From NCBI RefSeq assembly GCF_013315695.1, contig NZ_CP054353.1: a stretch of DNA of 64,000 bases, one strand, 5' to 3'. Below are positions 55,324 through 55,358 of the stretch, in pieces (the stretch's first letter is position 1; each line of letters opens with the position of its first letter). A model generated the notes under the pieces. It saw only the letters and a list, made by a program, of their open reading frames with translations. It was not told where the DNA came from and did not search any database. This stretch comes from Escherichia coli (GTDB taxonomy: Bacteria; Pseudomonadota; Gammaproteobacteria; Enterobacterales; Enterobacteriaceae). The position numbers were made by a program, and so were the translations under genes.

Positions 55324-55339
55324 GTGTAAGCGATTACAC
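55324..55339. promoter_or_regulatory. GalR/GalS-type operator upstream of galP
   Basis: gtgtaagcgattacac fits the gal operator pattern GTGnAAnCGnTTnCAC. Confidence 0.6.
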
Positions 55340-55342
55340 TGA

Positions 55343-55358
55343 TGTGATTTGCTTCACA
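55343..55358. promoter_or_regulatory. CRP binding site upstream of galP
   Basis: tgtga tttgct tcaca = TGTGA-N6-TCACA consensus. Confidence 0.6.

What the first reader, a model, noticed from the sequence alone, without database searches (positions are those of the whole stretch)
55324..55358. Adjacent GalR/GalS operator and consensus CRP site upstream of galP
gtgtaagcgattacac sits 3 bp from tgtga-N6-tcaca. The close juxtaposition is consistent with known dual control of galP and is unusually close to consensus for both sites.
Basis: partly seen in the sequence, partly recalled or inferred. Interest (0 to 1): 0.25.

Follow-up and report, generated by a model that had tools for sequence, protein, structure and literature searches.

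The report
Known galP promoter: GalR operator plus CRP site

Summary
GTGTAAGCGATTACAC lies at 55324-55339, then 3 bp (tga), then TGTGAtttgctTCACA at 55343-55358. The pair sits 98 and 79 bp upstream of the galP start codon (55422) in an E. coli chromosome. From 55207 to the ATG the window is identical to K-12 MG1655.

Both sites are already published:
- The 16-mer is the proximal galP operator, K-12 3088186-3088201. It gives the strongest GalR ChIP-chip signal in the genome.
- The CRP 16-mer is a ChIP-seq CRP peak assigned to galP.
- PgalP is inactive without cAMP-CRP, and GalR blocks that activation, giving AND logic.

Published positions (-61.5 and -243.5) put the transcription start at 55393 and the CRP centre at -42.5, a class II arrangement.

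What I added:
- The operator-to-CRP offset is exactly 19 bp in 74 of 79 Enterobacteriaceae species. The linker, the CRP spacer and operator position 7 vary freely.
- galE P1 and galS use the same 19-bp offset; mglB uses 18 bp.
- A distal operator (55142-55157) is conserved 181-185 bp upstream.
- The NagC operator over the start site (55383-55405) scores well only in Escherichia.

Verdict: real, functional, already known, low interest.

The parts
55142..55157 (.). Distal GalR/GalS operator CTGAAACCGATTACAC, centre -243.5
   Evidence: 2 mismatches to the consensus. Listed as a galP operator at K-12 3088004-3088019 (PMC5110547). Native position -243.5 (PMC9189660). Conserved 181-185 bp upstream of the proximal operator in 69 loci.
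55324..55339 (.). Proximal high-affinity GalR/GalS operator GTGTAAGCGATTACAC, centre -61.5
   Evidence: 0 mismatches. Equals K-12 3088186-3088201 and is the top GalR ChIP-chip peak. Highest GalR affinity of 4 sites tested. Contact positions invariant across 74 species.
55340..55342 (.). 3-bp linker (tga): length fixed, sequence free
   Evidence: High entropy at these 3 columns, yet the offset is invariant at 19 bp.
55343..55358 (.). cAMP-CRP site TGTGAtttgctTCACA, centre -42.5 (class II). The 22-bp site is 55340-55361 and abuts the operator.
   Evidence: 0 mismatches. 16.5 bits, best in the window. Reported as the ChIP-seq site for galP. Half-sites invariant and the N6 spacer variable across species.
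55380..55385 (+). -10 hexamer TATCTT (TACCCT in most other genera); no recognisable -35
   Evidence: Conserved CCTA...T columns. Same register as the galE P1 -10 TATGGT relative to the CRP site. Inferred, not mapped here.
55393..55393 (+). Transcription start (A), deduced
   Evidence: Derived from the published native operator positions -61.5 and -243.5 (PMC9189660). Both give the same base. It lies 8 nt after the -10 hexamer.
55383..55405 (.). NagC operator cttaattcacaataaaaaataac, overlapping the -10 and the start site
   Evidence: Listed as the galP NagC site in PMC3098098. Single NagC site giving about 5-fold regulation (PMC4288165). High PWM score only in Escherichia.
55412..55417 (+). 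Shine-Dalgarno sequence GGAGGG
   Evidence: Read from the sequence. Conserved.
55422..56816 (+). galP coding sequence (galactose:H+ symporter)
   Evidence: ORF. Annotation. 100% protein match at locus L002.

Best explanation
The segment is the core of the E. coli galP promoter's two-input switch.

Activation. cAMP-CRP binds TGTGAtttgctTCACA, centred at -42.5. From that class II position it activates a promoter that has a weak -10 (TATCTT), has no -35, and is silent without CRP.

Repression. GalR, or its paralogue GalS, binds the near-perfect operator centred at -61.5, which directly abuts the 22-bp CRP site, and cancels CRP-dependent activation. D-galactose releases the repressor. Transcription therefore needs both cAMP and galactose (AND gate).

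Inferred step. By analogy with galE P1, which has the same operator-3 bp-CRP layout in the same register to the -10, GalR most likely co-occupies the DNA with CRP. It would then act on the RNA polymerase alpha C-terminal domain, which at class II promoters docks just upstream of CRP. That would block open-complex formation rather than simply evict CRP.

Additional layers. A second operator at -243.5 and, in Escherichia only, a NagC operator over the -10 and start site add to repression.
For: Shown from the sequence: exact sites and spacing; identity to K-12 from 55207 to the ATG.

Shown in the literature:
- The operators are at these coordinates, with the top GalR ChIP-chip signal, and galP is up-regulated in a galR deletion (PMC5110547).
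- A CRP ChIP-seq peak carries this exact 16-mer (PMC4287617), and galP is a SELEX-confirmed CRP target.
[quoted passage not shown] - The native operator positions are -61.5 and -243.5 (PMC9189660).
- galR loss-of-function mutations are selected when GalP is needed for glucose uptake (PMC10519446).

Shown here by comparison:
- 74 of 79 analysable species keep the operator and CRP core at exactly 19 bp, and no other offset between 10 and 30 bp occurs. There are 66 distinct 35-mers. Variation is confined to the linker, the CRP spacer and operator position 7.
- An ungapped overlay of galE P1 and galP puts operator, CRP half-site and -10 in the same register.
- galS uses 19 bp and mglB 18 bp.

Basis for the alpha-CTD step: at galE, OE lies at -60.5 and CRP at -41.5, and GalR-OE inhibits P1 by contacting alpha-CTD and preventing open-complex formation (PMC4693257).
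Against: - The alpha-CTD anti-activation step is transferred from galE P1 and was not tested for galP with anything I could read. The key galP paper (El Qaidi et al. 2009) is not held.
- The 16-bp operator and the 22-bp CRP site have no gap between them, so competition is not excluded.
- A titration study reported that a PgalP reporter was activated, not repressed, by GalR and GalS (PMC9189660).
- The start site is deduced from quoted positions, not from a primary mapping I could read. It implies -42.5 for CRP, 1 bp off the canonical -41.5.
- The 182-183 bp operator spacing is not an integral number of helical turns at 10.5 bp per turn, so a simple in-phase loop is not obvious.
Confidence: 0.9

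Rival explanations
1. Simple competition. The operator and the CRP site are so close that GalR and CRP exclude each other, and repression is only displacement of the activator.
For: The 16-bp operator abuts the 22-bp CRP site with no gap. PMC4073488 says only that GalR 'inhibits cAMP-CRP-mediated activation', which is compatible with exclusion.
Against: The same 19-bp layout exists at galE P1. [quoted passage not shown] Exclusion alone would tolerate variable overlap, yet the offset is exactly 19 bp in 74 of 74 species that have the pair.
Confidence: 0.15
2. At galP, GalR/GalS bound at -61.5 acts mainly as an activator, in the way GalR at OE stimulates galE P2.
For: [quoted passage not shown] GalR-OE stimulates galE P2 through alpha-CTD.
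Against: galP is among the few promoters up-regulated when galR is deleted (PMC5110547). galR and galS loss-of-function mutations are selected to raise GalP-mediated uptake. The chromosome-derived Gate A construct behaves as an AND gate with GalR as inhibitor. The reporter result may reflect medium, copy number or the absence of cAMP-CRP.
Confidence: 0.05
3. The palindrome plus T-run (55341-55366) is an intrinsic terminator that insulates galP from upstream transcription, not primarily a protein site.
For: It is flagged as terminator-like. The hairpin folds at -9.3 kcal/mol with z = -3.3. A T-run after the palindrome is fairly well conserved.
Against: The stem is simply the CRP half-sites. Substitutions in other species follow CRP-consensus logic (C at position 1, G at position 16) and are not compensatory. 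metK already has a strong terminator at 55006-55030. In vivo CRP binding to this sequence is documented. The hairpin is weak for a terminator.
Confidence: 0.03
4. The two consensus motifs co-occur by chance and have no function.
For: None beyond the general frequency of CRP-like sites with one mismatch.
Against: Joint expectation is far below 1e-4 per window. Conservation across 74 species shows a protein-footprint pattern. Binding of both proteins in vivo is published.
Confidence: 0.01

Closest known systems
The galP promoter of E. coli K-12 itself (GalR/GalS operators at -61.5 and -243.5, CRP site, NagC site)
   Same: The sequence is identical from 55207 to the ATG. Operator coordinates map one-to-one onto the published ones. 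The CRP 16-mer is identical to the published ChIP-seq site. The NagC 23-mer is identical to the published site.
   Different: Nothing differs in the element itself. This strain differs from K-12 only further upstream: a 13-bp indel near 55037-55049 and scattered SNPs, including positions flanking the distal operator.
galETKM P1 control region (OE at -60.5, CRP at -41.5)
   Same: Operator, 3-bp linker, CRP 16-mer and -10 hexamer are in the same ungapped register. GalR and CRP are the regulators in both, and a second operator exists in both.
   Different: galE has a poor left CRP half-site (TTTAT) and a second overlapping promoter, P2. Its second operator is 113 bp downstream inside galE, with an HU-dependent loop. 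galP has a perfect CRP core and a single CRP-dependent promoter. Its second operator is 182 bp upstream, and it carries a NagC operator.
galS and mglB promoters of the gal regulon
   Same: An operator lies immediately upstream of a CRP site. galS has CTGTAACCGTTTCCAT-tgc-TGTGACTCGATTCACG at a 19-bp offset. mglB has ATGTAACCGCTTTCAA-tc-TGTGAGTGATTTCACA at an 18-bp offset. The galS site is natively at -61.5.
   Different: Their operators are weaker (2-3 mismatches). The mglB offset is 1 bp shorter. GalS rather than GalR prefers the galS-type site.
Class II CRP-dependent promoters in general
   Same: The CRP site replaces the -35 region about 41.5 bp upstream of the start, and the promoter is inactive without CRP. 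ChIP-seq sites cluster about 40.5 bp upstream of start sites.
   Different: The deduced centre is -42.5 rather than -41.5. This rests on quoted positions, not on a mapping I could read.

Membership tests
GalR/GalS (LacI-family) gal operator | 16-bp hyphenated dyad GTGNAANC.GNTTNCAC with the critical positions (3, 5, 9, 15) intact | tested here: met
   0 mismatches. The consensus and critical positions are quoted in PMC5110547. 20.98 of 22.38 bits with the classical-operator PWM.
GalR/GalS (LacI-family) gal operator | Bound by GalR in vivo or in vitro | not testable with these tools
   Literature only. It is the top ChIP-chip peak, score 115.4, with inferred site GTGTAATCGCTTACA, and has the highest GalR affinity of 4 sites tested.
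GalR/GalS (LacI-family) gal operator | Located in the control region of a galactose-regulon gene whose expression responds to GalR | tested here: met
   It lies 98 bp upstream of galP. galP is up-regulated in a galR deletion (literature).
Class II cAMP-CRP activator site | TGTGA-N6-TCACA core | tested here: met
   10 of 10 core bases. 16.5 bits, rank 15 of 107 ChIP-seq sites.
Class II cAMP-CRP activator site | Centre about 41.5 bp upstream of the start site, overlapping the -35 position | tested here: inconclusive
   The centre is -42.5 with the start deduced from quoted operator positions. It would be -41.5 if the start is 55392, as the galE P1 register predicts. No primary start-site mapping was readable.
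Class II cAMP-CRP activator site | CRP occupancy and CRP-dependent transcription | not testable with these tools
   Literature only: ChIP-seq peak, genomic SELEX, and PgalP inactive without cAMP-CRP.
galE-P1-type composite (operator immediately upstream of a class II CRP site) | Operator centre 19 bp upstream of the CRP centre, in fixed register with the -10 | tested here: met
   The centres are 55331.5 and 55350.5. The ungapped overlay with galE P1 matches. The offset is invariant in 74 species.
NagC operator (flanking part, not the finding itself) | 23-bp AT-rich dyad matching known NagC sites | tested here: met
   22.0 bits with a PWM from 6 other NagC sites. It is identical to the published galP NagC site.

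The most novel reading that the evidence does not exclude
The operator-3 bp-CRP unit may be a rigid, stereospecific 'anti-activation module'. Its 19-bp offset is invariant in 74 of 74 species that have the pair, and it is reused at galE P1 and galS. This could reflect a required ternary GalR-CRP-alpha-CTD geometry rather than occlusion. Onto this ancient module the Escherichia lineage alone appears to have added a NagC operator by a few substitutions in the 5' leader. Both the strict spacing constraint and the lineage-specific NagC layer may not yet be in the literature I could read.
Probability: 0.35. Interest if true: 0.3.

Novelty: already known. Interest (0 to 1): 0.1.

Why it matters
This element decides when E. 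coli makes its main low-affinity galactose (and promiscuous glucose) transporter. It is a textbook-style example of combinatorial control (cAMP AND galactose) and has been reused as a synthetic logic gate. GalP derepression is exploited in metabolic engineering of PTS-minus strains. Nothing here changes that picture. The added value is modest. It consists of a quantitative demonstration that the spacing of the two sites is frozen across Enterobacteriaceae, and an indication that the NagC input is a recent Escherichia addition.

Tried and rejected
- Papers not held. I tried to read the primary galP promoter paper (El Qaidi et al. 2009), Krishna 2009, Geanacopoulos and Adhya 1997 and Weickert and Adhya 1993, and Horvath 2010. 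None is held, so the start-site mapping and the NagC-GalR cooperativity claims could not be checked at source.
- False lead in two papers. The Crp ChIP-exo paper and the gal review mention only 'galP1', the gal operon promoter, not the galP gene.
- PWM disagreement. A GalR PWM built from ChIP-chip-inferred 15-mers ranked the site only 12 of 19 and second in the window. The motif favours GTGG...GGTTACA, so I do not take this as evidence of weakness, given the measured ChIP and affinity data. It does show that PWM rank is model-dependent.
- Terminator reading of the palindrome plus T-run, rejected.
- Minus-strand promoter-like hits at 55330-55302 and 55220-55193, rejected as chance: 2 found against 1.2 expected.
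- Coordinate mapping failure. Mapping two other operator-like hits to K-12 by a constant offset failed because the window and K-12 are not collinear upstream. BLAST placed them inside pepP and at the meaB/scpB junction, so they are probably chance matches.

Full report
**1. Observation**

The window reads gtgtaagcgattacac at 55324-55339, tga at 55340-55342, and tgtgatttgcttcaca at 55343-55358.

- The 16-mer is the only perfect match in the window to the gal operator consensus GTGKAANCGNTTMCAC. With up to 2 mismatches there are 4 matches against 0.57 expected, and no shuffle of 100 reached 4.
- One of those 2-mismatch matches, CTGAAACCGATTACAC at 55142-55157, lies in the same intergenic region.
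- The CRP core is the only perfect TGTGA-N6-TCACA in the window.
- By my arithmetic, a perfect CRP core is expected about 0.06 times and a perfect operator about 0.001-0.002 times per 64 kb.

**2. Context**

- The window is an E. coli chromosome. The metK-galP intergenic region matches 5425 of 5426 complete E. coli genomes, with galP annotated under the match.
- metK ends at 54986 with a strong terminator at 55006-55030.
- galP starts at the ATG at 55422.
- From 55207 to the ATG the window is identical to K-12 MG1655. Further upstream it differs by a 13-bp indel and several SNPs.
- In this proximal region, window coordinate = K-12 coordinate minus 3,032,862.

**3. What the sites are: published evidence**

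- PMC5110547 lists the galP operators as CTGAAACCGATTACAC (3088004-3088019) and GTGTAATCGCTTACAC (3088186-3088201). These correspond exactly to 55142-55157 and 55324-55339.
- In the same paper the proximal site has the highest in-silico score (25.15; next highest in the portion of the table shown, 16.04) and the highest GalR ChIP-chip score in the genome (115.4, against 78.1 for galE). galP is one of only three promoters up-regulated in a galR deletion.
- PMC9189660 gives the native positions as -243.5 and -61.5. It found the -61.5 site to be the highest-affinity GalR site of four tested.
- PMC4287617 lists TGTGATTTGCTTCACA as the CRP ChIP-seq site for galP in ETEC H10407.
- PMC3105977 lists galP among known CRP targets recovered by genomic SELEX.
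- The NagC operator cttaattcacaataaaaaataac (55383-55405) is listed in PMC3098098. It is described as a single site giving about 5-fold regulation.

**4. Scoring**

- CRP. I built a symmetrised PWM from 106 in vivo ChIP-seq sites, leaving out galP. The site scores 16.5 bits. That is the best in the window, rank 15 of 107 among the ChIP sites, whose median is 13.1. The core is perfect; the spacer and flanks are ordinary.
- GalR, classical PWM. A symmetric PWM from the 7 classical non-galP operators gives 20.98 of a possible 22.38 bits. That is the best in the window and above all classical operators under leave-one-out, where the maximum is 17.8.
- GalR, ChIP-derived PWM. A PWM from the 18 ChIP-chip-inferred 15-mers gives 17.1 bits, rank 12 of 19.
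- PWM rank is therefore model-dependent. The measured occupancy and affinity data put this operator at the top.

**5. Promoter geometry**

- The quoted positions -61.5 and -243.5 both place the start at 55393, an A. This puts the CRP centre (55350.5) at -42.5 (plus arithmetic).
- A conserved CCTA...T block gives a -10 hexamer TATCTT at 55380-55385. No -35 is recognisable.
- Overlaying the galE P1 region of K-12 without gaps puts the elements in one register. Aligned are operator OE (GTGTAAACGATTCCAC), a 3-bp linker, the CRP 16-mer (TTTATtccatgTCACA) and the -10 (TATGGT), against the corresponding galP elements.
- At galE the literature places OE at -60.5 and CRP at -41.5. It attributes P1 repression to a GalR contact with the alpha-CTD that prevents open-complex formation (PMC4693257).
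- galS has the same 19-bp offset and mglB has 18 bp.

**6. Comparative test**

One scan of 100,044 species genomes with GalP returned 80 loci from Enterobacteriaceae genera with at least 89% GalP identity.

- Of 79 loci with enough upstream DNA, 74 carry an operator (0-2 mismatches) and a CRP core (0-2 mismatches) at an offset of exactly 19 bp. No other offset between 10 and 30 bp occurs.
- The 74 elements comprise 66 distinct 35-mers.
- Entropy is zero or near zero at the operator contact positions and in GTGA/TCAC. It is high at operator position 7, the 3-bp linker and the CRP spacer. This is the signature of two protein footprints with a fixed spacing.
- The distal operator is also conserved, 181-185 bp upstream of the proximal one in 69 loci.
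- The NagC site scores 22 bits only in Escherichia (E. coli, Escherichia sp., E. albertii) and at most 4.5 bits elsewhere. This rests on a small PWM of 6 sites.
- There are five exceptions. Two Enterobacter sp. loci (L051, L061) have TTGACA followed by the operator and no CRP site. Silvania and Leclercia (L052, L053, L062) have neither proximal site.
- Within E. coli, the 51-bp core is 100% identical in 4669 genomes and 95-99% identical in 657.

**7. Mechanism**

- Shown by literature: CRP is required. GalR and GalS repress by cancelling CRP activation. Galactose is the inducer. NagC adds repression.
- Shown here: the geometry, and its conservation across species and across gal regulon promoters.
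- Inferred: GalR at -61.5 co-occupies the DNA with CRP and acts on alpha-CTD, as at galE P1. This would be helped by the distal operator and, in Escherichia, by NagC over the -10 and start site.
- Rivals: plain competition between GalR and CRP (0.15), GalR as activator (0.05, prompted by the reporter result), an intrinsic terminator formed by the palindrome plus T-run (0.03), and chance (0.01).

**8. Novelty and verdict**

The element is the known galP control region. The only additions are the strictness of the 19-bp spacing across about 74 species and the apparent Escherichia-specific origin of the NagC operator. Interest is 0.1.

Noticed in passing
window 55142-55157: A second gal operator (CTGAAACCGATTACAC, -243.5) lies 182 bp upstream of the proximal one. 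An operator at 181-185 bp is conserved in 69 of the species examined. The spacing is not an integral number of 10.5-bp helical turns, so the basis of the constraint (loop geometry or something else) is unclear.
   Followed up: partly
window 55383-55405; loci L002-L081: The NagC operator over the galP -10 and start site scores 22 bits in Escherichia only, and at most 4.5 bits in Salmonella, Citrobacter, Klebsiella, Enterobacter and the rest. NagC control of galP looks like a recent lineage-specific addition made by a few substitutions in the leader. The PWM is small (6 sites).
   Followed up: partly
L051 and L061 (about 100 bp upstream of galP); L052, L053, L062: Two Enterobacter sp. genomes replace the CRP site with a consensus TTGACA placed just before the operator (cttgacaattGTGTAAGCGATTACAT), which suggests a CRP-independent, operator-overlapped promoter. 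Silvania and Leclercia lack both proximal sites and keep only an upstream operator-like sequence.
   Followed up: no
window 55341-55366: The CRP palindrome followed by TCTTTTT is scored as terminator-like and folds at -9.3 kcal/mol, z = -3.3. A T-run after the CRP site is fairly well conserved and is also present at galE P1 (TCACAcTTTTc). It is probably a promoter-spacer or CRP-flank feature, but this is unexplained.
   Followed up: partly
window 55037-55090: The upstream part of the metK-galP spacer is polymorphic. There is a 13-bp insertion relative to K-12 at about 55037-55049, next to a REP-like GC-rich palindrome (ggcgttcacgcggcatccggc). The whole spacer is only 90-99% identical across most E. 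coli genomes, while the proximal 215 bp are identical to K-12.
   Followed up: no
window 4268-4283 and 17270-17286: Two other LacI-family operator-like 16-mers score well with the GalR PWMs: ATGCAACCGTTTTCAC, which looks PurR-box-like, and ATGTGAACGTTGTCACT, which is also CRP-like. They lie inside pepP and at the meaB/scpB junction. They are probably chance or non-regulatory matches.
   Followed up: partly
literature on PgalP (PMC9189660): A TF-titration study reports that a PgalP reporter is activated rather than repressed by increasing GalR or GalS. This is at odds with the deletion and evolution data. The cause may be the condition or construct used.
   Followed up: no
window about 1-55000 against K-12: The window is not collinear with K-12 upstream of galP. 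pepP lies about 51 kb from galP here, against about 34 kb expected from K-12 coordinates as I remember them. The scpB/meaB segment at about 17 kb is absent from about 1100 of 5426 E. coli genomes.
   Followed up: no
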